A DNA stretch of 63,499 nt, filler included, from Methanobacteriota archaeon (GTDB taxonomy: Archaea; JACRDV01), in NCBI GenBank assembly GCA_024860865.1. It is 8 parts of 8 records of this genome, joined end to end, with 100 filler letters (N's around TTAATTAATTAA, not from the genome) between each part and the next. Parts side by side here need not be neighbours in the genome. Positions count along the whole stretch, not along the records: positions 1 to 15,028 come from JACRDV010000125.1; 7 more parts are not named here. The stretch is one strand, 5' to 3'. The number at the start of each line of letters is the position of its first letter. The stretch's first letter is position 1. The translations under genes and the position numbers were made by a program. Below are positions 5,345 through 56,389 of the stretch, piece by piece. Under the pieces are notes generated by a model, which saw nothing but the letters and a program-made list of their open reading frames with translations, was not told the DNA's origin and did no database searches.

Positions 5345-5537
5345 AGTCTTAGAACTCGTTAGAGTAGAATTTAACTTTTTCTAGAAAATCGAGAACCAAA
5401 TTAGCCTATGGAGCAGAATTGTTTCTGGTGATGAACATCTACGGAAGCTGAAGAAATTTTAGATAAATTAAAATCGTAAGCGTTGCGGAGATGTTGGAGA
5501 TTTTGGAAGGTTAGTTCTTAATGTTTATATTTTAAAG

Positions 5538-7177
5538 CTAGCTTGCCGCTGCTCTAACAAATCCATAGAACAATGGCGCTGGTTTTCCAGGTCGTGACTT
5601 GAATTCTGGGTGAAATTGGCTCCCCATCAAAAACTTGTGTCCCGGCAATTCAATAATTTCCATTAGTCGGTCATCTGGACTGGTGCCTGAGAATATAACG
5701 TTATGTTTTTCGAACTCCTTAATATACTCCGGGTTAATTTCAAAACGGTGGCGGTGCCTCTCATAAACTAGCTCTTGTTTGTACAGTTCATAAGCTAAGG
5801 TTCCCCTTTTGATTTTCGCTGGATAAGCCCCTAATCTCATTGTTCCTCCAAGTTCCCTGATTTGTTTCTGTTCTGGAAGTATGTCAATAACTGGGTGAGG
5901 TGTTTTTGGATCGAGCTCAGTTGAATTGGCTCCATTTAACCCCAACATATTTCTAGCAATTTCTACAGCTGCGAGTTGCATGCCAAAACAAATTCCTAAG
6001 TACGGAACATTATGTTCACGAGAATATTTAGCTGCTAAAATTTTTCCCTCTGTACCTCTAACGCCAAAACCAGGCCCTATTAAAATGCCCTGAGCTGTTT
6101 TTAGCAACTCAATATTTTTCGGGTCGATTTCAAGTTGTTCAGCTTCAACCCATTTTATTCTAACTCTGCAACCAACCTCAGCTCCGGCATGTTTGAGTGC
6201 TTCAAGAATACTTATATAAGAGTCAGCTAAGGCTGTATATTTTCCAACAAATGCAATTTCAATTTCTTTCCTTGCTTTATCCATTTTATTTACAAAATTT
6301 TCTAAATCCGAAAGATCTCTTTTCTGTGAGGTAAGAGTTAATTTTTCTAGGATCGCATCTCCAACTCTTTCCTTTTCGAGAATTAGCGGGACTTTATAGA
6401 TATTATCGGTATCGGGCGCAGAGACAACAGCTCTCTCCTCAACATTACAAAAGAGGCTAATTTTTGCCTTAGCGCCTCTAGTCAATTTTTCCTTTGCCCG
6501 GCAGATAACTACATCGGGCTGAATACCGATTGCTCTAAGCTCTTTTACACTGTGTTGAGTGGGTTTTGTTTTCTGTTCACCGACTACATCTAATACAGGC
6601 ACTAAAGTTACGTGAACAAAAGCAACATTTTTGGGCCCGTCTTCAAGCCGCATTTGGCGCACAGCTTCAAGAAATGGCATGCTTTCAATGTCACCGACAG
6701 TGCCCCCAATCTCTACTAAAACTACATCCACATTTGATTTCTCAGCAACCTCTCTAATCTGGTGCTTAATCTCATCAGTTAAGTGCGGAACAATTTGAAC
6801 AGTTTGCCCTAGATAGTTACCGCGTCGTTCCTTTTCGATTACTACCTTGTAAACTTTTCCTGTTGTTATATTGTGGGCTCTAGTTAGATTAACATCAAGA
6901 AAGCGTTCATAATGCCCTACATCTAGGTCAATCTCTCCGCCATCATCTGTTACAAAAACCTCTCCATGTTGAAAGGGATTCATAGTACCTGCATCAACGT
7001 TTAAGTTTACCCTTAGCTTTTCGCTAATATGGGTCTATTTTGATGACGGTTACCATGAGGCCTCTCGATTGGAGAATTTTTCCGATGGATGCGGTAGTGA
7101 TTCCTATAGGCCCAACTAATTGGTTTGCCTAGACCACTCATCACACCACCGGTAACAAAAATGTATTTAACCGCCTT
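5538..7177 (-). CDS. pyrG: CTP synthase, predicted spliced: exons ~7177-7125, 7105-7029, 7006-5538 (start codon uncertain)
   Basis: Joined exons read [23 protein letters not shown]...[21 protein letters not shown]; glutaminase motifs GICFG and HPE intact. Confidence 0.95.
7007..7028 (-). other. Putative 22-nt BHB mRNA intron 2 in pyrG
   Basis: ACCC-AUA-UUAGC-GAAAA-GCUAA-GGGU-AAA; canonical cuts restore D-P-Y-L-N. Confidence 0.88.
7106..7124 (-). other. Putative 19-nt BHB mRNA intron 1 in pyrG
   Basis: AGGC-AAA-CCAA-UUAG-UUGG-GCCU-AUA; canonical cuts restore G-K-G. Confidence 0.88.
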
Positions 7178-7285
7178 GATTCCCTCCTAACGCCGCAATG
7201 TTTAGCAATTACTTTTCTTAAATACTTTTACTTTTAATAATACTTTGGCTTTTAGCTAGCTTCTTCTTTTGCGCTTTTTTGCTAC

Positions 7286-7405
7286 TTATGAAAATCCTGA
7301 TTCGCTGTGTATACAGTTAGCGCATATCTCCTCTCTTGGAACAGGCTCAAATTCTTTACAGCTATCCCTTAATCCAACTATCTTATCAAATTTCTTGCAC
7401 TTCAT
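7286..7405 (-). CDS. Possible 39-aa Cys-rich small protein
   Basis: MKCKKFDK...SCKEFEP...ICANCIHS after a G-rich SD-like sequence. Confidence 0.4.
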   Translation of the reverse strand: MKCKKFDKIVGLRDSCKEFEPVPREEICANCIHSESGFS

Positions 7406-7850: not shown

Positions 7851-8876
7851 GTGAGAATGAGTTGCACGGTTGTTGTTGACGGGTTTTATGGCGATACTGG
7901 CAAGGGAAAAATTGTAAGTTTTCTTAGCATCGTAGACAAACCAGCTATAGTAACAAGGACTGGAGGACCGAATGCTGGGCATTCGATAGAATATGGCGGT
8001 AAAAGGTATAAGCTGAGGATAATTCCTTCTGCCTTCATTTATGAAAAAGCTCAATTGTTATTAGCGCCTGGAGCTCTTGTAAATCTTAAGATATTTTTTG
8101 AAGAAATGGAGATAACAAATACTAAAGGAAGAGTCTGGTTAGATAAGCAAACTGGAATCATAGAGTCAAAACATATTGAAGAAGAAAAGACCTCAAGTCA
8201 CTTGATGGGTAAAATAGGCAGCACTGGAAGCGGATGTGGAGCAGCTCAGGCAGATAGGGTCTACAGAAAACTTAAACTAGCCAAAGACTTTCCCGAACTT
8301 AAAGAGCATATCACTGATGTTCCGCTTAAGATGGCTGAAGCTTTGGATAAAGGAGATGTTGTGATAGTAGAGGGGACTCAGGGAACATATCTGTCTTTTT
8401 ACCATGGCAGCTACCCTTGGTGCACTTCAAAAGATGTCACAGCCTCAGGAGTTTGTTCAGAAGCAGGAATAGGTCCAACTGAGGTTGACGATGTAATATT
8501 AGTATTGAAATCATTTGTTACTCGCGTTGGTGAAGGACCACTAGAGGGGGAGCTATCCCCAGAGGAAGCGCTCAAACGCGGCTGGGCTGAAATAGCTACG
8601 GTGACTGGAAGAGCACGTCGAGCAGCACCATTTAATTATGAACTAGCCAAGCGTGCTGTAATTCTCAATGGAGCTACACAAATAGCATTGACAAAAATAG
8701 ATATTCTATATCCTGAGTGTTTTGGAGCTACTAAATATGAGCAGCTCAGCAGTGGAGCTAAGAAATTTATAGAAAGTATAGAAAACAAACTCAAAATTCC
8801 TGTTACCATAATTGGCACTGGACCAAATACTCTGCATTCAATAGACTTAAGAAAAGAAAAAATATATCAGTCATAA
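7851..8876 (+). CDS. purA: Adenylosuccinate synthetase (short archaeal type)
   Basis: GDTGKGK, GGPNAGH, EGTQG, TVTGRARR. Confidence 0.95.
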   Translation: MRMSCTVVVDGFYGDTGKGKIVSFLSIVDKPAIVTRTGGPNAGHSIEYGGKRYKLRIIPSAFIYEKAQLLLAPGALVNLKIFFEEMEITNTKGRVWLDKQTGIIESKHIEEEKTSSHLMGKIGSTGSGCGAAQADRVYRKLKLAKDFPELKEHITDVPLKMAEALDKGDVVIVEGTQGTYLSFYHGSYPWCTSKDVTASGVCSEAGIGPTEVDDVILVLKSFVTRVGEGPLEGELSPEEALKRGWAEIATVTGRARRAAPFNYELAKRAVILNGATQIALTKIDILYPECFGATKYEQLSSGAKKFIESIENKLKIPVTIIGTGPNTLHSIDLRKEKIYQS

Positions 8877-9840: not shown

Positions 9841-12132
9841 TCATTCTACTGTTACAGATTTCGCGAGGTGCCGGGGTTTATCAGGATCTAATCCTCGCGC
9901 TGTGGAAACATAATATGCTACTAACTGAAGTGGAGCAACATAAGGAATTGGCGATGAAATTTCATCAACTTCAGGCATTTTAATTACATCATCAACTAAT
10001 TTAGCAATTTTTTCATCTTTTTCACTTGCTAATGCAATTACTTTTGCTCCTCGAGCTTTCACTTCTTCAATATTTCCAATCATTTTATCATAATTATCTC
10101 CAGGAGGAATTACAACAATTACTGGCACTCCTTTCTCAATTAAAGCCAAGGGACCATGTTTAAGCTCGCCACCTGGATAGCATTCAGAATGGATGTAAGA
10201 AATTTCTTTAAATTTCAATGCCCCTTCAGAAGCAGTTGCAAAGCTAATTCCACGCCCCAAAAAGTAAACATCTTGCACATCTTTTAGTTCTTCAGCTAAC
10301 TCCATAATTTTAGTTTCTTGAGAATCGATTACTTTGTGAACAATATCAGGCATTCTTTCCAATTGTTTGAGCAATTCTTTGATCTTATACTTAGGCAAAG
10401 TTTTTCTGATTTTTGCAAGGTAAACTGCTATCAAAAATAGGTCAATTAATTGAACAGCAAATGTTTTAGTAGCAGCTACTCCAATCTCAGGTCCTGCATG
10501 GGTGTAGCAAACGCAATCGCTTTCTCTGGTTATTGAGCTTCCAACTACATTTGTTATTGCTAAAATCTTCGCTCCTTTTTCTTTTGCTGCTCGAATTGCT
10601 GCTAGCGTATCTGCAGTTTCACCAGATTGGCTAATTGCCAAAACTAAAGAATTTTCATCAAGAGTTGGAACTGCAGCTTCTTTAAACTCTGAAGAAATTA
10701 TAACATCTACAGATAATTTTGCTAATTTTGCAAAAGCATACTTGGCTGCTAGAGCAGCATGGTAAGAGGTCCCGCAAGCAATAACATAAATTTTTTTATC
10801 CGTATTCAAAAATTCGATAAAATCTTTCAATTCATCTTCTCGAACTCTTAGAGTTTCTCTGATCGCAAATGGTTGCTCATGTATCTCCTTCAGCATAAAG
10901 TGAGCATACCCAGCTTTTTCTGCCATTTCTGGGGCCCATCTAACAGTTTCAATCTTTTTCTTTACAACTTCTCCCGTTAGAAAATTTTTTATAACAACAC
11001 CAGTGGATGTGAGTATCCCAAGTTCTCCATCATTTAGGATAATAACTTTGTTTGTTTCTTTAAGGAATGCAGGTATATCGGATGCCGCAAAAGTCTCGTT
11101 ATTACCGATACCGATTACTAATGGGCTTTCTTTTCTAACAACTATGAGTTTATCCGGTTCTTTTGCATTTATTATCGCCATTGCATATGATCCTTTGAGT
11201 TGATGGCAGGCTTTTACTACTGATGTTTCAAAATCAAATCCTTCTCTATTGAATTTCTCGATTAAATGGGGTATTACCTCAGTGTCTGTCTCTGATCTAA
11301 ATACATGTCCTTCTTTAATTAATTCCTCTTTGAGCTCTATGTAATTTTGAATTATACCATTGTGAGCCACTACGATTTGATTTTCACAATCAGTATGAGG
11401 ATGTGCGTTGATTTTAGTTGGTGCACCGTGTGTTGCCCACCTCGAATTATGAGAAATAATACCGTTGGCTATAAAGTTCTCATAATTTGGAACCTCTAAA
11501 TCATATACGTACTCTGTATTGTTTTCTATTTTTGTGTTGGATAATAGTCTTTGATAAACTATAGGATCACGAACGTACCGTTCTGAAACATCACTCAATT
11601 TCGATTTCTCTTTAACAAAAGTGAATTGGCTGAATATAAGCCTGTCTTCTTTCCGTATGTCTTTTACTTCCTTTTCTATTATCTTCCCGTTTCCATCTAT
11701 AACAAATAATCTATGTCTCTCTGTGCAAATGATTTCAGCAGAAGAAGTTTTTATTTTATGTAAATTTTTTGGGGCTTTATGTTTGAAGCAAATAGCTTTA
11801 GCTTTTACAAATTTTGATTTTTTGAGATCGTATGATAAAACGAAACATTCTTCATTAAGACTCGAAATTTTTGCTGTACTACCATCTGCTAGTTGAACAA
11901 GTGTATCTGGATGTAAACAATGTCCAATGCCTGCGTTACCAGGAAGGTCATCTAGATTTAGCCTTTGGTGAACTTCTTCAATTTTTCCCATGTCCTTCTT
12001 AATGTATATCTGTTTATTATCTATAGTTGTAATACCCACTGAATCATATCCACGATATGCTAATCTGCGCAACGCTTCGTGTATAACATAGGCACACTTC
12101 CTTGTAGATATACACCCGAATATACCGCACAT
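9841..12132 (-). CDS. glmS: Glutamine-fructose-6-phosphate transaminase with intein; start at MCGIFG
   Basis: CGIFG, RGYDS, GH/SRWATHG, SQSGETADT, HLAKSVTVE. Confidence 0.96.
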   Translation of the reverse strand: MCGIFGCISTRKCAYVIHEALRRLAYRGYDSVGITTIDNKQIYIKKDMGKIEEVHQRLNLDDLPGNAGIGHCLHPDTLVQLADGSTAKISSLNEECFVLSYDLKKSKFVKAKAICFKHKAPKNLHKIKTSSAEIICTERHRLFVIDGNGKIIEKEVKDIRKEDRLIFSQFTFVKEKSKLSDVSERYVRDPIVYQRLLSNTKIENNTEYVYDLEVPNYENFIANGIISHNSRWATHGAPTKINAHPHTDCENQIVVAHNGIIQNYIELKEELIKEGHVFRSETDTEVIPHLIEKFNREGFDFETSVVKACHQLKGSYAMAIINAKEPDKLIVVRKESPLVIGIGNNETFAASDIPAFLKETNKVIILNDGELGILTSTGVVIKNFLTGEVVKKKIETVRWAPEMAEKAGYAHFMLKEIHEQPFAIRETLRVREDELKDFIEFLNTDKKIYVIACGTSYHAALAAKYAFAKLAKLSVDVIISSEFKEAAVPTLDENSLVLAISQSGETADTLAAIRAAKEKGAKILAITNVVGSSITRESDCVCYTHAGPEIGVAATKTFAVQLIDLFLIAVYLAKIRKTLPKYKIKELLKQLERMPDIVHKVIDSQETKIMELAEELKDVQDVYFLGRGISFATASEGALKFKEISYIHSECYPGGELKHGPLALIEKGVPVIVVIPPGDNYDKMIGNIEEVKARGAKVIALASEKDEKIAKLVDDVIKMPEVDEISSPIPYVAPLQLVAYYVSTARGLDPDKPRHLAKSVTVE
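11446..11919 (-). mobile_element. Mini-intein (158 aa, no homing endonuclease) in glmS
   Basis: Starts CLHPDTLV, ends VYDLEV..ENFIANGIISHN followed by Ser; splits the GH-S-RWATHG motif. Confidence 0.93.
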
Positions 12133-12728
12133 AAAAAACACGTTTAACAAGTTTTTATTTTTTAAGAGCATTTCGCTTTTCATAGTTAATTTTGGCTTGC
12201 TTAGTACATCTTTCTACTTCTTTTTTAATGTTAAATTTTAAACATTTTCCCAATTTTGCCCTCAAAAATTGCCCATCTGAGTGCCAGAAATTAAATAATT
12301 CCACTTAAATTTTCGATTTTAAACTGAGAAATTTATCATCCCCGATGATTATGCAGTAAAATGATAGATGCTGAATTGTTATCTATCTATAATAAGGAAA
12401 ATTCAAGAAGTACTTGACCATGCAAAACGCTCCGGGCTGAGCGCGGATAACTCTCATTTTCTTTAAACTCAAGCTTCTTTCAGCTCGCGTTCCAATATTT
12501 GGCTAACTCCTAGTTTGCCACATCTGCCACTCGATTTATAAGCCTTTCTTTGCCACATTTGCCACATTCTGGATTCTTCGGTGCTTGAAATTGCAAAATC
12601 TAGTTTCCACGATTTCCGCTTCAAATGTGGACGATGGGATTCGAACCCTCGTGCTCAAGGATTAAGGCTGGAAAAGGACGAAGAAAATCCTAGAGGGAAA
12701 TAGGGCCTCCTAAGTTTGAATTGAGCTG

Positions 12729-12823: not shown

Positions 12824-12838
12824 TAATTAAGGATTTGA

Positions 12839-12965
12839 TGGCGCGGGCGTGATTTTCACCTTAGTAAATTATCTCTACTAAAGATTTGAACACGCGACAT
12901 CAGGATCTTCAGTCCCGCGCTCTCCATAGCCAGGCAAACATGCCTTCAGGCTGAGCTACCGCGCC
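12839..12965 (-). tRNA. tRNA-Phe(GAA) with D-loop intron (12926-12946) and T-loop intron (12853-12884)
   Basis: Both inserts form full BHB motifs; removing them gives a standard cloverleaf. Confidence 0.92.
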
Positions 12966-13014
12966 ACCAATGAAAAATTAGCGCACCTATCTAAAAAATT
13001 TTCCGCTAAAATAG

Positions 13015-15028: not shown

Positions 15029-15128
15029 NNNNNNNNNNNNNNNNNNNNNNNNNNNNNNNNNNNNNNNNNNNNTTAATTAATTAANNNNNNNNNNNNNNNN
15101 NNNNNNNNNNNNNNNNNNNNNNNNNNNN
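15029..15128. other. Artificial contig spacer
   Basis: N-run/TTAATTAATTAA/N-run. Confidence 0.98.
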
Positions 15129-18311: not shown

Positions 18312-18730
18312 ATGCGGATTTTATTGATTCACTCGGATTATATCCAATTTGAAGCGAAACAAAAAACTCCGGTTGCAGAAGAAGTCCCAGAGGAAATGAA
18401 AAAAGGGAGAATTGAAGAAGTTTTAGTTGTTTTTACGGCAGTTGAAGAAATCGATGAGCAGAATCCGAGTTTAGTGAGCGAGCGCGCAGTTAATGAAATC
18501 ACTGATGTCGCGAGAAAAGTTAATGCACAAAATATTTTTATTTATCCATATGCTCATTTGAGTTCCTCTCTTAGTTCACCAAGCATTGCTGTTGAAGTTC
18601 TCAAACAAATGGAAAATTTGTTAAAAGAAAAAGATTTTAATGTTGCTAGAGCGCCCTTTGGTTATTATAAGACTTTTGAAATAAAGTGTAAAGGCCATCC
18701 TCTCTCTGAATTATCCAGAACAATTTTGCC
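18312..18730 (+). CDS. thrS: Threonyl-tRNA synthetase, archaeal N-terminal editing domain (truncated by contig end)
   Basis: [37 protein letters not shown]. Confidence 0.92.
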
Positions 18731-18830
18731 NNNNNNNNNNNNNNNNNNNNNNNNNNNNNNNNNNNNNNNNNNNNTTAATTAATTAANNNNNNNNNNNNNN
18801 NNNNNNNNNNNNNNNNNNNNNNNNNNNNNN
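18731..18830. other. Artificial contig spacer
   Basis: N-run/TTAATTAATTAA/N-run. Confidence 0.98.
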
Positions 18831-26250: not shown

Positions 26251-26506
26251 GGCATATATTCAGTGTAACTATAAACCTGGAGCTAAAGTCAATGCAATCG
26301 CAGCTGCTTTAGAAGTAGATAATAAAGCTGCTCCGCCGACTATTAAAGTAAAAAGTTATTCTGAAAAAAATATACTTTATAATGAGATCGAAACTATTGA
26401 TAAATTAGAGACATTTTTATCAACTATTGATGATTTATTGTTCTCGATATTAATTGCTGAAAGTTCACTCTCGTTGGAGGATGAAGGTGGAGGAACAAAG
26501 GTTTAA
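26237..26506 (+). CDS. pcc1: KEOPS subunit Pcc1
   Basis: ALEVDN, STIDDLL; conserved position after recJ. Confidence 0.8.
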   Translation: MVLAKAYIQCNYKPGAKVNAIAAALEVDNKAAPPTIKVKSYSEKNILYNEIETIDKLETFLSTIDDLLFSILIAESSLSLEDEGGGTKV

Positions 26507-28067
26507 TTTAAAAGCTAGCTTTACATTCAGCGATAATGTTGAAAAAGCAAGCCAAATTCTAAAAGAATTTTTTGTACGAGCAAATAAAGAGATCCTTCTT
26601 AAAGGCGTCCCTAAAGGTAAGGAAGAAGAAGCTGCAAAAATTAAAGCCTGGGAGCTAAAAGGAAACCAACTTGAAGTTAACATAGAATCTGGAAGATATG
26701 TTAGAGCACATGTGGCTGTATTAAGGATTGGGAAAATATTAGCTGAAACTCTTGGTAAAAATTATAAAGTGGGGCTTCGCAGCATCAATGTAAAAGATTT
26801 TTTTATAAACTTATCAACAACTCAAGCACTTCCAAAAGAAATTGTCGAAAGAGTTAAATCTCTTCCTAAAATCCAAGATGTTAAAGCTGAAGCGAACATT
26901 CTCAACCTCTTGCTTAAGCCCTTAACAGAAAGTGAGCTTAAGAGGAATATCCCCGATAGAATTATCAGTTTGGCTGAAAAAATTATAGAAGATGGCCTGA
27001 AGAAGCCGACCATTATTCCTAAAATGCCGATTTTAAAGAAAAGCCCTCCCAAGCCAATAAAATTCTCAGAAGATCCTTTGAAAGTAGCTCTTCAACTTGG
27101 TTGGATAAAAGAGTTCCCGGGCAGAGGACAGTACATTTACACAGCCCCATATGCAAAATTGTTCGAAATAATTAAAGAAACATTGCTCAAAGAAATCGCT
27201 CGTAAATTGGGTTTTCAACCTTTTTTACTGCCAAAATTAATTCCGCTTGAAGTAATGAAGAGAATGCCCGGCTATCTAGATGAGATACCAGAGGGCATGT
27301 ACTACGTATGCCCACCACCCAGAGATCCAGGGGCTTTCACTCGTTTTAAGGATCAATTTAAGATTACAAAAGATATTCCTAAAAAAGAATTGAAAAAGGT
27401 AATTAAAGATCCGGAATATGTTTTAGCACCAGCTCAGTGCGAACCATTCTGGCAGTTTTATAGCCATGAAATTGTTCGAGTTGAAGAACTTCCATTTAAA
27501 CTCTATGACTCTTCAGGTTGGACATACAGATGGGAAGGCGGTGGAGTTGAAGGGCTTGTACGCCTTCAAGAGTTTATGCGCATCGAATTAACATATCTCG
27601 GCACACCTGAGCAGGTTGTTGATATCAGAGACAGTATAATGAACGAATGCGTGCGTGTAGCCGACAAAATACTTGGCCTAGAATGGAAAATAACTGCTGC
27701 AACACCATTTTACATGAAAGGCGGCGAAATCGCCGTTGATATAACTGACAGCAAGAACGTGGCTGCTTATGATATTGAAATATTTTTACCATATCGCGGG
27801 CCTAGGGAAAGCGCCGAGTGGCTAGAAATTGCTGGCTGCTTTGTACACAAAACTAAGTTCGTTGATAGCTTCAAAATTCGCGAGATTAAAGGGAGAGATA
27901 TATGGACAGGATGCACTGGGCTTGGCATTTCAAGGTGGGTTGCAGCATTTCTCGCAGAGCATGGATTTAATTCTAAAGACTGGCCAAAAGAAATACGCGA
28001 ACAAGCTGAGCCTTTACCAGAAGTTCCTAAAACCTTAGAGTGGCCGGCGGTTAAGAAAAAAGAGTAA
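26481..28067 (+). CDS. serS: Seryl-tRNA synthetase, methanogen type
   Basis: ESGRYVRAH N-domain, APAQCEPF, YRWEGGG, EFMRIE, WTGCTGLG; GGAGG before ATG 26481. Confidence 0.92.
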   Translation: MKVEEQRFNLKASFTFSDNVEKASQILKEFFVRANKEILLKGVPKGKEEEAAKIKAWELKGNQLEVNIESGRYVRAHVAVLRIGKILAETLGKNYKVGLRSINVKDFFINLSTTQALPKEIVERVKSLPKIQDVKAEANILNLLLKPLTESELKRNIPDRIISLAEKIIEDGLKKPTIIPKMPILKKSPPKPIKFSEDPLKVALQLGWIKEFPGRGQYIYTAPYAKLFEIIKETLLKEIARKLGFQPFLLPKLIPLEVMKRMPGYLDEIPEGMYYVCPPPRDPGAFTRFKDQFKITKDIPKKELKKVIKDPEYVLAPAQCEPFWQFYSHEIVRVEELPFKLYDSSGWTYRWEGGGVEGLVRLQEFMRIELTYLGTPEQVVDIRDSIMNECVRVADKILGLEWKITAATPFYMKGGEIAVDITDSKNVAAYDIEIFLPYRGPRESAEWLEIAGCFVHKTKFVDSFKIREIKGRDIWTGCTGLGISRWVAAFLAEHGFNSKDWPKEIREQAEPLPEVPKTLEWPAVKKKE

Positions 28068-31063: not shown

Positions 31064-31163
31064 NNNNNNNNNNNNNNNNNNNNNNNNNNNNNNNNNNNNN
31101 NNNNNNNTTAATTAATTAANNNNNNNNNNNNNNNNNNNNNNNNNNNNNNNNNNNNNNNNNNNN
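31064..31163. other. Artificial contig spacer
   Basis: N-run/TTAATTAATTAA/N-run. Confidence 0.98.
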
Positions 31164-33964: not shown

Positions 33965-34064
33965 NNNNNNNNNNNNNNNNNNNNNNNNNNNNNNNNNNNN
34001 NNNNNNNNTTAATTAATTAANNNNNNNNNNNNNNNNNNNNNNNNNNNNNNNNNNNNNNNNNNNN
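33965..34064. other. Artificial contig spacer
   Basis: N-run/TTAATTAATTAA/N-run. Confidence 0.98.
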
Positions 34065-42993: not shown

Positions 42994-43093
42994 NNNNNNN
43001 NNNNNNNNNNNNNNNNNNNNNNNNNNNNNNNNNNNNNTTAATTAATTAANNNNNNNNNNNNNNNNNNNNNNNNNNNNNNNNNNNNNNNNNNNN
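42994..43093. other. Artificial contig spacer
   Basis: N-run/TTAATTAATTAA/N-run. Confidence 0.98.
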
Positions 43094-48270: not shown

Positions 48271-48639
48271 CCAACTAATAGTTTATAGTAGCTAATGTTA
48301 AATAAAAAATTATAATTATAAAAATTTTATTTAAATTTAAACTACTATTCCGCATTAGGAAAGTCTCGTACCTTGTGTTTACCAAGAGACTGGACAAGAT
48401 CTTCTCTAGACTTTATTTTTCTGTACCAATTTTAACCATTATATCGCACCAATTGTTATAATTTGGTTATCAATAATAACTTGTCTGTTTCCTACTCTTA
48501 ATCCTGCTTTTTCAGTAGATCCTCCGGGAGGGGATATTATTAAAACATGCTACGGTAGCTCTAAAGCGCTACTAAGATCTTGAGTTAAATCTTAACAAAA
48601 AACAAGCTTACGTTTAAAAAACACTATTAATTGCCTGCT

Positions 48640-48663
48640 TGGGGCCGTCGAGATTTGAACTCG
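48640..48663 (-). mobile_element. tRNA(Pro-like) 3'-end fragment, att-like scar
   Basis: CGAGTTCAAATCTCGACGGCCCCA with no 5' half. Confidence 0.6.
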
Positions 48664-48675
48664 TCATAAATCGCA

Positions 48676-49125
48676 TTACAAATGAGTTATTTCAACGAAA
48701 GACTTTGGCGTTACACACCTGAACTTCCCTTTCAGCGAGCGCAGGAATTCTCGATTGTTAGAAATTATGTATTTTACCCCGACCGCGATAGCCAATGCAG
48801 CGTGCGCAATATCCTCTTTCGGGACTTCTCCAGAAAGCTGTGAGACGTATAAAGCAAGCTCACCTTCGAAGATGACTTCGGCTTTAGCAACGACCTGCGA
48901 CCTCAGCTTGGATGCGAAATCTTTACCCATTAACCTCCGTGCAACCGCGACTACCTCAAAGAGAAGCACATCGGAAAATGCCACCTTTAGCCTGCCCTCA
49001 AGGAAAGCAGATCAGATCCTTGCCTCCGGGCTGTCGACGTTATGAGCCAGATTAATTGCCCCTTCGATGATGACATTTGTGTCGAGGAGAACTATTTGCG
49101 GCTCTTCAATACCTCTTTCAGCCAT
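48676..49125 (-). pseudogene. PIN-domain toxin with in-frame TGA at 49012-49014
   Basis: IVLLDTNVII...EARI*SAF...PKEDIAHA...ISNN in one frame. Confidence 0.75.
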
Positions 49126-49355
49126 GGTTCAACCTTTTGTTTGTAGACCTCATGCCTCGTTTCCCTGCAAATTTTAAGAATTTCCTCCCTCGGTGGCAGC
49201 TCGAGCTTTCTTAACACGAGAACGCCCTTTCCAAGATCCACTATTTGTAGCTGAACTCCTGGCTCTATTCCACCCTTCTTTCTGATATCCTCTGGGATTA
49301 ACACACGGCCCTTGTCATCCACTTTAACAACTTCTGACGCCATACCCGACACCAA
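49092..49355 (-). CDS. AbrB/MazE antitoxin
   Basis: VKVDDKGRVLIPEDIRK. Confidence 0.88.
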   Translation of the reverse strand: MVSGMASEVVKVDDKGRVLIPEDIRKKGGIEPGVQLQIVDLGKGVLVLRKLELPPREEILKICRETRHEVYKQKVEPWLKEVLKSRK

Positions 49356-49385
49356 TTAAATAGTGGGACTTTCCCACTTATAAAT

Positions 49386-49790
49386 TTATGCAGAATTAAA
49401 TGGTGGGCCGTAGCTTGGGAATCCGGACAAACTTCCGCCAACAACTGCATTTTTCTTTAGAGGCTTGAACTTAAAATCAGGTTTTATGATTGAAATAATG
49501 GAAAAAATGAGTAAGAAAAATCCCAAAAACAATTTCAGAATATTTTGCGGTGTGTAGTTAACCAATATAGCGCCAACTATTGTTAGAATGACGCTCGGTA
49601 CTCCAAAGAGCAAAATTAGTTTTTTATTTATTCCGTGTCTGAAAAATGTTATTCTTCCAAGATTGCCAAATATATGAAAAAGAGCCACAAGAATTAAAGC
49701 AGTCTTAAAATCAACAAAAAATAAAGCGAGAGGCAAGAAAACAGTCGAAGATCCAAATCCCGCGATTGTTCCTATAACTTCTGTTGCGAG
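49386..49790 (-). pseudogene. TauE/SafE sulfite exporter fragment
   Basis: EVIGTIAGFGSSTVFLP...GGSLSGF; lacks a start codon and the C-terminal half. Confidence 0.7.
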
Positions 49791-49800
49791 GTATATTCTT

Positions 49801-49925
49801 TTTACAACTGTAAATAAATTCCCTCAAAGTTCAAATACTGATTAAACGCGCGGTGGGAGCACTTTTTTACAGTTGTAAATAAAATCCCCTAAAAGTTAAT
49901 GTTAGTTGAATGTGCGGTGTGAGTA
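49801..49925. repeat. Two imperfect 65-bp tandem repeats with a TTTACA-NN-TGTAAA palindromic head
   Basis: Copies start at 49801 and 49866; related sequence at 50537-50619. Confidence 0.75.
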
Positions 49926-49980
49926 TGCTTTTTCTGCTATTCAGTAAAGGTTTAAATATAAGTAAGAATATCTTACTAGT

Positions 49981-50268
49981 ATGAAAAAAGAAATAGAAGT
50001 ACCTGTATTGACAAAAGCCAGCTCAAAAGGTCAAATAGTAATACCGACTGAAGTGAGAAAGAAGCTTGGAATAAAAGAAGGCAGCGTGTTTGCTGTTAGC
50101 GCAAAGAAGAATTTACTTGTGTTGAAAAAATTAGATGCAAAAATGAAACCAGAAGATTTGAGAACACTAAAACTAATTGAAGAGGCCTGGAAAGACATTG
50201 AGAAAGGCAGATATAGAGTAGCCACTCCTGAAAAGTTTTTTAAAGAGTTGGCTAAATGGAAAAAATAA
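49981..50268 (+). CDS. AbrB/MazE antitoxin
   Basis: SSKGQIVIP.EVRKKLGI.EG. Confidence 0.88.
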   Translation: MKKEIEVPVLTKASSKGQIVIPTEVRKKLGIKEGSVFAVSAKKNLLVLKKLDAKMKPEDLRTLKLIEEAWKDIEKGRYRVATPEKFFKELAKWKK

Positions 50269-50516
50269 AGGAAATAATTTGGACTCAAAAGTTCGAGGAA
50301 GATTTCAAGAAAATTAAAGATAGATCAATGCAGGATAAGATAGAGAAACAGATAAGGAAAATAATTGAGAATCCTCGATTTGGAAAACCATTGAGATACA
50401 GTTTGTATGGCGAGAAATCAGTCTATGTAAAGCCTTATAGACTTATTTTTAAAGTAGAAGGAGACAAACTAACTCTTCTTCGATTCGAACATAGGAATGA
50501 AGTATATAGGAGATAA
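50256..50516 (+). CDS. RelE/ParE toxin
   Basis: ENPRFGKPL, PYRLIF, HRNEVY. Confidence 0.88.
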   Translation: MEKIKEIIWTQKFEEDFKKIKDRSMQDKIEKQIRKIIENPRFGKPLRYSLYGEKSVYVKPYRLIFKVEGDKLTLLRFEHRNEVYRR

Positions 50517-50937
50517 GTGCGTTGTCAGAAATTGTGTTTACAATTGTAAATGATCTTGTTCACAGCTTTAAATAAAATCTCCTAAAGTTTAATACTGTTG
50601 TGTTGCACAGTGGAAGCATAAATTTAAATTTATTTTAAATTTGCCCCTTATCTGTAAGTCTATACAATCTTCCAACTTTTTCTTCTGGTGTTACACACTC
50701 AATTAATCCCATTTTCTCGAAGTTCCGACAAAGAACGACTCACAGTGTGATATTTATATTTGGTTCTTGGGCTAATTGACTTGGTAATTTAGGTCTTTCT
50801 AGGGCCTATGAACACATTTTATTAATAGGCTCTTTTTTTAAAATGCCTAACAATAAAGATTTGTCCCTCCAAGGTGTTTTTTATTTGCTTAGCAAATAGT
50901 GGAACAAATATTTATATAATGGAATTTCTTATTATAA

Positions 50938-51198
50938 TTGGTGAAAAAAATGGAAAGTGGATTAGAAATAAAAAAAGTGGATTCCCAGGGGCGCTTTGTT
51001 TTGCCTGCAGACTGGCGAGAATCAGAGCTTAAAGAAAGTCAAGAAGTTTATATTATAAAAAGAAAAGAATATTTGAAAATAATTCCAAAGCGTAAAGTTG
51101 ACCTATCTAAGCTCTTTGATAAAGTCGATCTAGGAATCGAATCAATTAAAGATTGGAAAGTCTTTGAAAAAAAATTCTTTGCAAGGGATATTAAATGA
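50938..51198 (+). CDS. AbrB-like antitoxin
   Basis: KKVDSQGRFVLP.DWR. Confidence 0.85.
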   Translation: MVKKMESGLEIKKVDSQGRFVLPADWRESELKESQEVYIIKRKEYLKIIPKRKVDLSKLFDKVDLGIESIKDWKVFEKKFFARDIK

Positions 51199-51629
51199 AA
51201 TTCTTGGATGCTAATATTTTCATTTATGCTTATTATAAACCAAAAAAGCGATTAAACAAAGAAGAGCAAGCAATGAAAAATTTTGCAAAAGAGATCATTG
51301 ACAGTATTAATCAAGGAAAAGCAGAAATAATAACTTCAGTAGTTCATATTTCGGAAATGGTCAATATTCTCAAACATGGTACATCTATTAAAGAATTGGA
51401 TGAAGTAATTTCGAGCCTTTTTATGCTTGATAACGTGAAGATATTTGGGGTTAGCAAAGAAGAATATTTTATGGCAACGGAGTTAGGTTCTGAGCTAAAA
51501 TTAGATCCTAATGATGCATTGGCAGTTCAAATAATGAAAAAAAATAAAGCGACTCAAATATATTCTTTTGATAGCGATTTTAATAAGGTTGAAGAAATAA
51601 CAAGGTTACCGAAAATTGAAAAAAGTTAA
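51195..51629 (+). CDS. PIN-domain VapC toxin
   Basis: FLDANIFIYA, SE, NDALA, YSFDSDF. Confidence 0.9.
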   Translation: MKFLDANIFIYAYYKPKKRLNKEEQAMKNFAKEIIDSINQGKAEIITSVVHISEMVNILKHGTSIKELDEVISSLFMLDNVKIFGVSKEEYFMATELGSELKLDPNDALAVQIMKKNKATQIYSFDSDFNKVEEITRLPKIEKS

Positions 51630-53532: not shown

Positions 53533-53632
53533 NNNNNNNNNNNNNNNNNNNNNNNNNNNNNNNNNNNNNNNNNNNNTTAATTAATTAANNNNNNNNNNNN
53601 NNNNNNNNNNNNNNNNNNNNNNNNNNNNNNNN
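53533..53632. other. Artificial contig spacer
   Basis: N-run/TTAATTAATTAA/N-run. Confidence 0.98.
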
Positions 53633-56289: not shown

Positions 56290-56389
56290 NNNNNNNNNNN
56301 NNNNNNNNNNNNNNNNNNNNNNNNNNNNNNNNNTTAATTAATTAANNNNNNNNNNNNNNNNNNNNNNNNNNNNNNNNNNNNNNNNNNNN
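56290..56389. other. Artificial contig spacer
   Basis: N-run/TTAATTAATTAA/N-run. Confidence 0.98.

What the first reader, a model, noticed from the sequence alone, without database searches (positions are those of the whole stretch)
7007..7028. pyrG intron 2: 22-nt BHB carrying an in-frame UAG in KIDPYLN
Minus strand reads AG-ACCC-AU^A-UUAGC-GAAAA-GCUAA-GGGU-AA^A-CU. The central helix ACCC/GGGU and the 5-bp inner stem are perfect; the outer helix is only 2 bp. Splicing turns the genomic TAT into TAC (still Tyr), a usable junction signature. Retention gives an immediate stop. Its sequence is unrelated to intron 1, which suggests an independent gain 77 nt away.
Basis: seen in the sequence. Interest (0 to 1): 0.85.

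Follow-up and report, generated by a model that had tools for sequence, protein, structure and literature searches.

The report
Tiny tRNA-type intron inside pyrG
A 22-base insert that breaks the CTP synthase gene of an uncultivated groundwater archaeon has the shape cut by the tRNA-splicing enzyme, and look-alike inserts sit at the same codon in other archaea, so it is very probably a real messenger-RNA intron of a kind known so far from one other gene.

Summary
Observation confirmed. On the minus strand, 7007-7028 is a 22-nt insert in the Tyr codon of the KIDPY/LNVDAG motif of pyrG. It folds as helix-bulge-helix-bulge-helix: ACCC/GGGU centre, two 3-nt bulges, perfect 5-bp inner stem. Cutting after the second bulge base restores a frame that aligns without gaps to 157 of 157 homologues. 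The same rule turns a neighbouring undetected gene into a canonical tRNA-Phe.

The motif alone is not rare: 21 in the window against 18.6 in shuffles. The case rests on other evidence. Contigs from two further studies keep the insert, with changes only in its loop, and 23 of 26 exon differences are synonymous in the spliced frame. Ten of 401 sampled genomes of another phylum (named Candidatus Nezhaarchaeales) carry a 19-27 nt insert at the identical site, and all 5 inner-stem pairs covary. Intron 1 (7106-7124) has nine counterparts at its own site.

The pyrG tree rejects common descent of the carriers. No RNA run was available, so splicing itself is inferred. My searches found no paper describing it.

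The parts
7007..7028 (-). Intron 2 of pyrG (22 nt): last base of bulge 1, 5-bp inner stem with 5-nt loop, 3' strand GGGU of the central helix, first two bases of bulge 2.
   Evidence: structure. (removal restores KIDPY/LNVDAG). (kept in contigs of 3 studies, changes only at loop positions 7020 and 7021). (covariation with 10 same-site inserts).
7004..7036 (-). Whole hBHBh' motif of intron 2, including its exon parts: outer AG/CU, exon strand ACCC of the central helix, bulges AUA and AAA.
6992..7045 (-). Extended exon-exon helix around the motif (7045-7040 pairs with 6997-6992). Further pairs reach 7058 and 6978 in the 86-nt fold.
   Evidence: z -4.67, 0 of 200 shuffles. (natural variants give the same predicted fold); the flank complementarity is not exceptional (20 of 157 homologues are equal or stronger).
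7106..7124 (-). Intron 1 of pyrG (19 nt), inside the Lys codon of the GLGK/G P-loop. Centre AGGC/GCCU, bulges AAA and AUA, 4-bp inner stem.
   Evidence: Nine same-site inserts in another phylum. Covariation.
7125..7180 (-). Exon 1. The start codon is uncertain: ATC at 7180-7178 is the only table-11 start in frame after the TAG at 7189-7187.
7029..7105 (-). Exon 2 (77 nt), encoding from the G of GLGKG to the first base of the Tyr codon of KIDPY.
5538..7006 (-). Exon 3, including the stop codon. It covers the rest of CTP synthase. Gene callers report only the 481-aa part from Met 6983.

Best explanation
[quoted passage not shown] It is the second of two mini-introns in the first 130 nt of the coding region.

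Shown here: the transcript region can fold so that exon bases ACCC pair with intron bases GGGU. Each splice site then lies in a 3-nt bulge, flanked by a 5-bp intron hairpin and by exon-exon pairing.

Inferred from what is established for this RNA shape: the tRNA-splicing endonuclease (EndA) cuts after the second base of each bulge, leaving a 2',3'-cyclic phosphate and a 5'-OH. An RtcB-type ligase then joins the exons.

Shown by translation and homology: the joined message reads Tyr(TAC)-Leu-Asn and encodes a full-length CTP synthase of about 530 residues. A message that keeps intron 2 stops at UAG right after KIDPY. One that keeps both introns stops inside intron 2.

The intron belongs to a family of same-site pyrG introns also found in Candidatus Nezhaarchaeales.
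For: 1. Exact structure at the exact place.
2. Removal by the canonical cut rule gives a product that aligns without a gap over residues 1-66 to 157 of 157 homologous loci that have an N-terminus. Of 160 fetched, L035 and L111 end at contig ends and L117 has NN.
3. The same rule applied to two compact BHBs at 12926-12946 and 12853-12884 turns a stretch in which ARAGORN finds nothing into a canonical tRNA-Phe(GAA). The organism therefore uses such mini-introns at unusual positions.
4. Contigs X1 record 6, X3 record 23 and X4 record 29, from three studies, bridge the intron without gaps. No contig skips it. Its only two differences are loop positions 7020 and 7021.
5. 23 of 26 exon differences in those runs are synonymous in the spliced frame (21 of 23 if three from weak X2 contigs are dropped), including 7057 in exon 2.
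6. 10 of 401 sampled genomes of another phylum carry a 19-27 nt insert at the same phase of the same Tyr codon, with the same ACCC-AUA...GGG(U/C)-A(A/G)A frame and different hairpins. In alignment A1 the inner helix is paired in 100% of cells, 5 of 5 pairs change on both sides, and the covariation score is 0.238 against 0.068 in shuffles (0 of 500 reach it). Slid controls collapse.
7. P0001 (478 of 481 identical, from another assembly) is called from the same internal Met.
Against: No RNA evidence: no RNA run holds the stretch.

The outer helix has only 2 contiguous pairs. One published definition asks for more than two (Soma 2014, figure legend passage).

The motif as such is no more frequent in the window than in shuffles. 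A frame-rescue scan found no excess of other candidates: 15 of 530 and 20 of 564 against 20.4 and 19.2 for random placement.

Exon-flank complementarity is not exceptional.

EndA and RtcB could not be looked for, because no genome is held.

The gene has no ATG, GTG or TTG start, so something about its expression remains unexplained.

The four natural substitutions in the 86-nt fold all keep the structure, but by my estimate that would happen by chance about one time in four.
Confidence: 0.9

Rival explanations
1. The gene is a decaying pseudogene that picked up two small hairpin insertions. The BHB shape is a coincidence.
For: Unspliced, the gene is broken in two places and lacks a standard start codon. 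The BHB motif is common by chance.
Against: 23 synonymous against 3 non-synonymous differences in the spliced frame across strains that keep the inserts. The 530 codons contain no other defect. The insert is kept without indels in 3 studies. Same-site inserts with compensatory changes occur in another phylum. Two chance BHBs at exactly the required boundaries have, by my estimate, a joint probability below 1e-6.
Confidence: 0.03
2. The insert is skipped during translation (ribosomal bypass as in phage T4 gene 60) or handled by frameshifting, not removed from the RNA.
For: A stop codon follows the last sense codon directly and a hairpin comes next, as I recall for gene 60.
Against: There is no matching landing codon. 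The triplet before the resumed frame is AAC for take-off UAU at intron 2, and AUA for take-off AAA at intron 1 (read). Insert lengths at the same site vary from 19 to 27 nt with covarying stems, and cut sites are fixed relative to the bulges. That fits an RNA-shape ruler, not a hop. Identical elements are removed from a tRNA in the same window.
Confidence: 0.03
3. The BHB is cut by EndA mainly as a control point: cleavage or slow splicing limits CTP synthase output. It would be a regulatory switch rather than a neutral intron.
For: Both introns lie in the first 130 nt, where an unspliced message yields only a short peptide. In another phylum, inserts sit at three pyrG sites and also in the P-loop of purA, another nucleotide-synthesis gene. 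In Haloferax, removal of a 5'-UTR BHB intron seemed important for expression of HVO_1309 (Schwarz 2020, passages read).
Against: No expression data exist. The pattern may reflect only where the exon sequence offers half a BHB (ACCC-AUA, GGGG-AAA).
Confidence: 0.1
4. Assembly or scaffolding artefact.
For: The window is a scaffold with 14 runs of N.
Against: None of those runs is near pyrG (the nearest is at 15029). Independent Logan contigs from three studies carry the same insert.
Confidence: 0.01

Closest known systems
BHB intron of cbf5 pre-mRNA in Crenarchaeota (Watanabe 2002; Yokobori 2009, PMC2738675, abstract and passages read)
   Same: A protein-coding gene interrupted by a short intron whose boundaries form a bulge-helix-bulge motif and which is removed by the tRNA-splicing machinery. 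Lineage-specific presence and absence. Gene callers mis-predict the gene.
   Different: The host gene is pyrG, not cbf5. There are two introns in one gene here (and two, at sites 2 and 3, in Nezhaarchaeales). The inserts are very small (19 and 22 nt). The window's pyrG sits with Hadarchaeales (support 84), outside the large clade that holds the crenarchaeal and other TACK sequences. The same codon is occupied in distant lineages. Splicing of cbf5 was shown experimentally; splicing here was not.
Non-canonical tRNA mini-introns with strict hBHBh' motifs (Marck and Grosjean 2003, as cited in PMC3978253; 2026 preprint on Asgard tRNA introns, passages read)
   Same: Same architecture and size. The tRNA-Phe gene 5.8 kb away has 21-nt and 32-nt introns of the same compact hairpin form.
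   Different: The exon context is a reading frame, not a tRNA body. The exon half of the motif is therefore fixed by codons (GAC-CCA-UAY) and the cut must preserve the frame.
BHB intron in the 5' UTR of HVO_1309 mRNA, Haloferax volcanii (Schwarz 2020, PMC7714728, passages read)
   Same: An mRNA substrate of the splicing endonuclease outside Crenarchaeota.
   Different: That intron lies in the untranslated leader. This one interrupts the coding sequence and shifts the frame.
Ire1-dependent HAC1/XBP1 unconventional splicing in eukaryotes (recalled; RtcB's role is mentioned in the abstract of PMC8718801)
   Same: A very small frame-shifting intron (26 nt in XBP1, recalled) removed from a cytoplasmic mRNA by an endonuclease plus RtcB-type ligase rather than by a spliceosome.
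   Different: As I recall, those splice sites lie in the loops of twin stem-loops recognised by Ire1, not in the 3-nt bulges of a BHB.

Membership tests
Archaeal BHB (hBHBh') intron | [quoted passage not shown] | tested here: met
   ACCC/GGGU with bulges AUA and AAA. This is the minimum-energy fold and was found by the strict scan.
Archaeal BHB (hBHBh') intron | [quoted passage not shown] | tested here: inconclusive
   h' has 5 perfect pairs. h has only 2 contiguous pairs, then an internal loop and a 6-bp exon-exon helix. In the Nezhaarchaeales counterparts h is 1-2 pairs (helix 1 paired in 63.6% of cells).
Archaeal BHB (hBHBh') intron | Cutting within the bulges gives a functional joined product | tested here: met
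   Cutting after the second bulge base restores KIDPY/LNVDAG. 0 of 157 homologues need a gap. The same rule yields tRNA-Phe.
Archaeal BHB (hBHBh') intron | Structure kept through compensatory change among relatives | tested here: met
   inner helix paired in 100% of cells, 5 of 5 pairs changed on both sides, 0 of 500 shuffles reach the score. Most both-side changes come from the window row against ten related rows, so the number of independent events is small.
Archaeal BHB (hBHBh') intron | Excision and exon ligation seen in RNA | not testable with these tools
   No RNA run holds the stretch.
Archaeal BHB (hBHBh') intron | The genome encodes EndA and an RtcB-type ligase | not testable with these tools
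   No whole genome is held. Neither family appeared among the 50 window ORFs scanned against Pfam. Intron-bearing tRNA genes in the window imply that the machinery exists.
cbf5-type pre-mRNA intron | Host gene is cbf5, in Desulfurococcales or Sulfolobales | tested here: not met
   The host gene is CTP synthase (PF06418 and PF00117 on its homologues). The pyrG tree places the window with Hadarchaeales.
Translational bypass (T4 gene 60 type) | Matching take-off and landing codons (feature recalled) | tested here: not met
   UAU against AAC at intron 2, and AAA against AUA at intron 1 (read).

The most novel reading that the evidence does not exclude
BHB mini-introns are a recurrent, site-specific feature of nucleotide-synthesis genes across distant archaeal phyla. 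They occur at three pyrG sites (the P-loop Lys codon, the Tyr of KIDPY, the Tyr of TMNPY) and at the purA P-loop Lys codon.

The same exon half-sites (ACCC-AUA and GGGG-AAA or AGGC-AAA) are occupied in lineages whose pyrG genes are not each other's relatives. This would point to an active way of spreading or re-creating introns at proto-splice sites (for example reversal of the cut-and-join reaction), or to a selected link between tRNA-splicing capacity and nucleotide supply. Archaeal mRNA introns would then be far more common than the single accepted case suggests.
Probability: 0.3. Interest if true: 0.9.

Novelty: new member of a known kind. Interest (0 to 1): 0.8.

Why it matters
For more than twenty years cbf5 has been the only archaeal protein-coding gene with an accepted BHB intron. 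Schwarz 2020 states 'only one example', and Yokobori 2009 states there is no confirmation for other genes.

This finding adds a core metabolic gene with two such introns. Following it up showed the same two codons, and a third, occupied in other archaea, and a similar insert in purA.

Practical consequences:
- Gene callers truncate these genes. NCBI entries for Nezhaarchaeales CTP synthase are 492-502 aa against about 535-550 aa, and P0001 is 481 aa. Metabolic reconstructions from archaeal MAGs may therefore misjudge pyrimidine and purine synthesis.
- It gives concrete, easily testable substrates for asking how BHB introns arise at particular sites, and whether mRNA splicing by the tRNA machinery has a regulatory use.

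Tried and rejected
- No whole genome is held for the window, so EndA, RtcB and other split genes could not be sought genome-wide.
Close relatives may have been missed.
- No RNA holder was listed for the stretch. The look-up of sequencing runs was busy five times before it answered.
- The frame-rescue scan for further mRNA introns in the window showed no excess over random placement. Pfam coverage of 50 window ORFs showed no other split gene. An apparently truncated AcnX ends at an N run. The overlapping cytochrome c assembly ORFs are two genes. A TauE fragment lies among toxin-antitoxin genes.
- A relaxed search for a third BHB that would create a start codon found nothing credible: inner and outer helices of 0-1 pairs.
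- Both intron sequences are unique in the window at up to 3 mismatches, so they are not a repeated element there.
- Exon-flank complementarity compared with 157 intron-less homologues: 18 and 20 homologues are equal or stronger. It is not distinctive.
- P0077 (488 aa, starting at the same Met) looked like another carrier, but its cluster holds a 534-aa member. Dropped.
- L171 (one in-frame TAG) is simply the natural stop codon.
- pyrG is uninterrupted in all listed matches of the phyla of G004 (35 of 38 genomes with a match; G026 ends at a contig end) and of G001 (34 of 66 with a match).
- Taxonomic placement failed. The best eS1 relative is 57-58% identical and unnamed. The best of five tested genomes is a Hydrothermarchaeota MAG at 52%.
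- Literature: 0 papers with 'CTP synthase' plus 'bulge-helix-bulge'. 0 with 'adenylosuccinate synthetase' plus 'bulge-helix-bulge'. 0 with 'Nezhaarchae' plus 'intron'. Broader searches listed only cbf5 and HVO_1309 as mRNA cases.
- The library lacks most subscription journals. A 2006 book chapter by Brugger et al., which Yokobori 2009 cites for predicted introns in other genes, could not be read. Supplements are closed.

Full report
**What is there.** The minus strand between 7180 and 5538 encodes CTP synthase (pyrG) in three pieces.

- Exon 1 (to 7125) ends in the Lys codon of the GLGK/G P-loop.
- A 19-nt insert follows (7106-7124).
- Exon 2 (7029-7105, 77 nt) runs to the first base of the Tyr codon of KIDPY.
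- The 22-nt insert under review follows (7007-7028).
- Exon 3 runs to the stop at 5538-5540.

Read straight through, the frame after KIDPY meets TAG at once. With both inserts kept, the frame ends inside the second insert.

The translation then aligned to 157 of 157 homologous loci without any gap in residues 1-66. Of 160 loci fetched, three lacked an N-terminus: two end at contig ends and one has NN. KIDPYLN is almost invariant in that set.

- RNAfold returns it as the minimum-energy structure: 37 nt, -10.0 kcal/mol, z -3.26, 1 of 200 shuffles as good.
- In an 86-nt context the whole helix-bulge-helix-bulge-helix forms. It is extended outward by a 6-bp and then an 8-bp exon-exon helix: -25.8 kcal/mol, z -4.67, 0 of 200 shuffles.
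- Intron 1 folds the same way, with a weaker z of -2.27.
- In a 146-nt fold both cores form together.

**Is it more than chance?** Not by motif count.

- A strict scan for compact motifs finds 21 in the window against a mean of 18.6 in 30 shuffles.
- A looser scan finds about 1,800.
- A test for motifs whose removal joins long open frames shows no excess.

The argument therefore rests on position and on independent evidence. At about 1.5e-4 chance motifs per position, one falling exactly where homology requires a 22-nt deletion is unlikely. A second falling at the required 19-nt deletion makes it more so.

Of the 21 motifs, the four with G+C-rich central helices are the two in pyrG and two in an unannotated tRNA gene at 12835-12970. 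ARAGORN finds nothing in that 136-nt stretch. After both inserts are removed by the same 'cut after the second bulge base' rule, it finds a canonical tRNA-Phe(GAA). That is a positive control for both the rule and the organism. Three further tRNA genes in the window are 92-118 nt long and so also carry introns.

**Natural variation.** Four DNA runs hold parts of the stretch, and none is RNA. Laid on 5500-7300:

- Contigs from three studies bridge intron 2 without gaps: X1 record 6, X3 record 23 and X4 record 29. X1 and X4 also bridge intron 1.
- X1 may be the source sample, although it differs from the window at 7020.
- No contig joins across either insert.
- The only differences inside intron 2 are at 7020 and 7021, positions 3 and 2 of the 5-nt loop on the RNA strand. 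There are none in intron 1.
- Of 26 differences in exons, 23 are synonymous in the spliced frame. If three from short, divergent X2 contigs are dropped, the count is 21 of 23. The exon-2 difference at 7057 is among the synonymous ones.
- The variant sequence gives the same predicted fold.
- A protein from another assembly, P0001, is 478 of 481 identical and is called from the same internal Met.

The interrupted gene is thus under purifying selection. It is not a pseudogene.

**Relatives elsewhere.** The organism has no close relative in the collections reached. pyrG is at most 66% identical to Hadarchaeales sequences, and ribosomal protein eS1 at most 58% to unnamed sequences.

I surveyed pyrG with a full-length Hadarchaeales protein.

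- It is uninterrupted in the phylum of a Hydrothermarchaeota MAG (35 of 38 genomes with a match).
- It is uninterrupted in the phylum of a Hadarchaeota MAG (34 of 66 with a match).

All nine carry a 21-28 nt compact BHB inside the Lys codon of the P-loop, the site and phase of the window's intron 1.

A pattern built for the intron 2 site found 19 places in 18 genomes, against 12 control hits. Ten of them, in ten genomes, are pyrG with a 19-27 nt insert at exactly the window's intron 2 site. They share the same exon strand and bulge (ACCC, AUA), the same GGG(U/C) and A(A/G)A, and have different hairpins. I did not examine the other nine places.

These ten genes also carry a third insert of 30-33 nt in the Tyr codon of TMNPY, again after ACCC-AUA. 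Removing both opens the frame in 7 of 10 by my automatic parse. NCBI names their products CTP synthase of Candidatus Nezhaarchaeales, at 492-502 aa, which is truncated.

**Covariation.**

- Window intron 2 aligned with the ten counterparts (A1): the five inner-stem pairs are paired in 100% of cells. All five show changes on both sides. The covariation score is 0.238 against 0.068 in shuffles, with 0 of 500 reaching it. Sliding the partner by one column drops pairing from 92% to 44-52%.
- The central helix hardly varies, as expected when one strand is codons.
- Intron 1 and its nine counterparts behave the same way: 100% paired in the central and inner helices, five pairs compensatory, 0 of 500.
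- Caveat: much of the signal is the window row against a set of related rows, so the number of independent changes is small.

**History.** I built a 49-row pyrG tree (quick IQ-TREE, SH-aLRT supports).

- The window sits with Hadarchaeales (support 84), outside a clade of 31 rows (98) that holds both intron-bearing groups.
- The site-1 carriers form one clade (95) and the site-2/3 carriers another (100).
- Trees forcing the window together with either group are rejected: delta lnL 125, p-AU 1.5e-57, and delta lnL 118, p-AU 1.5e-7. The groups were named after I had seen the tree.
- Site-1 and site-2 inserts never occur together in the 19 loci from that phylum, but both occur in the window.

It also suggests that the same codons were occupied more than once. 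An ancient origin with many losses, or transfer of the 5' end of the gene, is not excluded.

**Mechanism.**

- Shown: the fold, the exact restoration of frame and homology, selection on the spliced frame, and covariation.
- Inferred from the known behaviour of this RNA shape: cleavage by the tRNA-splicing endonuclease at the two bulges and joining by an RtcB-type ligase.
- Not shown: any RNA product, and the presence of the enzymes (no genome is held).
- Bypass translation is unlikely, because neither insert has a landing codon that matches its take-off codon.

**Compared with what is known.** The kind is known: the cbf5 pre-mRNA intron of Crenarchaeota, and a 5'-UTR BHB intron in Haloferax. 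The 2020 paper says cbf5 was the only coding-region case. My eight literature searches found no paper linking CTP synthase, adenylosuccinate synthetase or Nezhaarchaeales with such introns. The library is incomplete, one cited book chapter could not be read, and supplements are closed. I therefore file it as a new member of a known kind, with unusual features: two introns in one gene, very small size, and recurrence at the same codons in distant lineages.

**Open points.**

- The gene has no ATG, GTG or TTG between an in-frame TAG (7189-7187) and the conserved KYIF. ATC at 7180 is the only table-11 start.
- The survey covered three phyla only, and 249 rows were not listed.

Noticed in passing
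L181-L200 (20 loci from 20 of 401 sampled genomes of the phylum of G002): Adenylosuccinate synthetase (purA) carries an 18-30 nt compact BHB insert inside the Lys codon of its P-loop (GDEGK/GK), in the same GGGG-AAA exon context as the pyrG site-1 inserts. Removal gives open frames of 333-441 aa. The window's own purA (7851-8876, +), next to pyrG, has no insert.
   Followed up: partly
L209-L218, about 27 nt downstream of the site-2 insert: A third pyrG insert (30-33 nt) lies in the Tyr codon of TMNPY in Nezhaarchaeales, again after the heptamer ACCC-AUA. 7 of 10 loci were resolved automatically.
   Followed up: partly
window 12835-12970 (-): A tRNA-Phe(GAA) gene missed by ARAGORN and by Rfam's gathering threshold. 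It has a 21-nt D-loop intron (12926-12946) and a 32-nt T-loop intron (12853-12884). A 2026 preprint describes a 21-nt D-arm insertion in a tRNA-Phe(GAA) of an Asgard genome. I did not test whether the two are related.
   Followed up: partly
window 7169-7198 (-): pyrG has no ATG, GTG or TTG start. The frame reads TTG(7198)..TAG(7189-7187)..ATC(7180)..GTT-AAA-TAC. A GGAGG lies at 7187-7183, only 2 nt before the ATC.
   Followed up: partly
window 15029-15128, 18731-18830, 31064-31163, 33965-34064, 42994-43093, 53533-53632, 56290-56389: Seven places each hold two runs of 44 N separated by 12 bases. One truncates the AcnX gene. These may be masked or withheld stretches rather than ordinary scaffold gaps.
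   Followed up: no
window 9841-12183 (-): GlmS (glutamine-fructose-6-phosphate aminotransferase) carries an intein near its N-terminus (Pfam Intein_splicing, residues 97-246).
   Followed up: no
window 18312-18782 (+) and 26454-28067 (+): A free-standing archaeal ThrRS editing domain, and a seryl-tRNA synthetase whose N-terminus matches PF18490 tRNA_bind_4.
   Followed up: no
phylum of G001: 32 of 66 genomes, many of 0.6-1.2 Mb, gave no pyrG match with the Hadarchaeales query. I did not examine whether this reflects incompleteness, loss, or a gene too broken to be found.
   Followed up: no
window 48300-51200: Low coding density. The region holds a TauE fragment (116 aa, matching profile positions 24-137 of 237) among AbrB-like and PIN toxin-antitoxin genes.
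   Followed up: no
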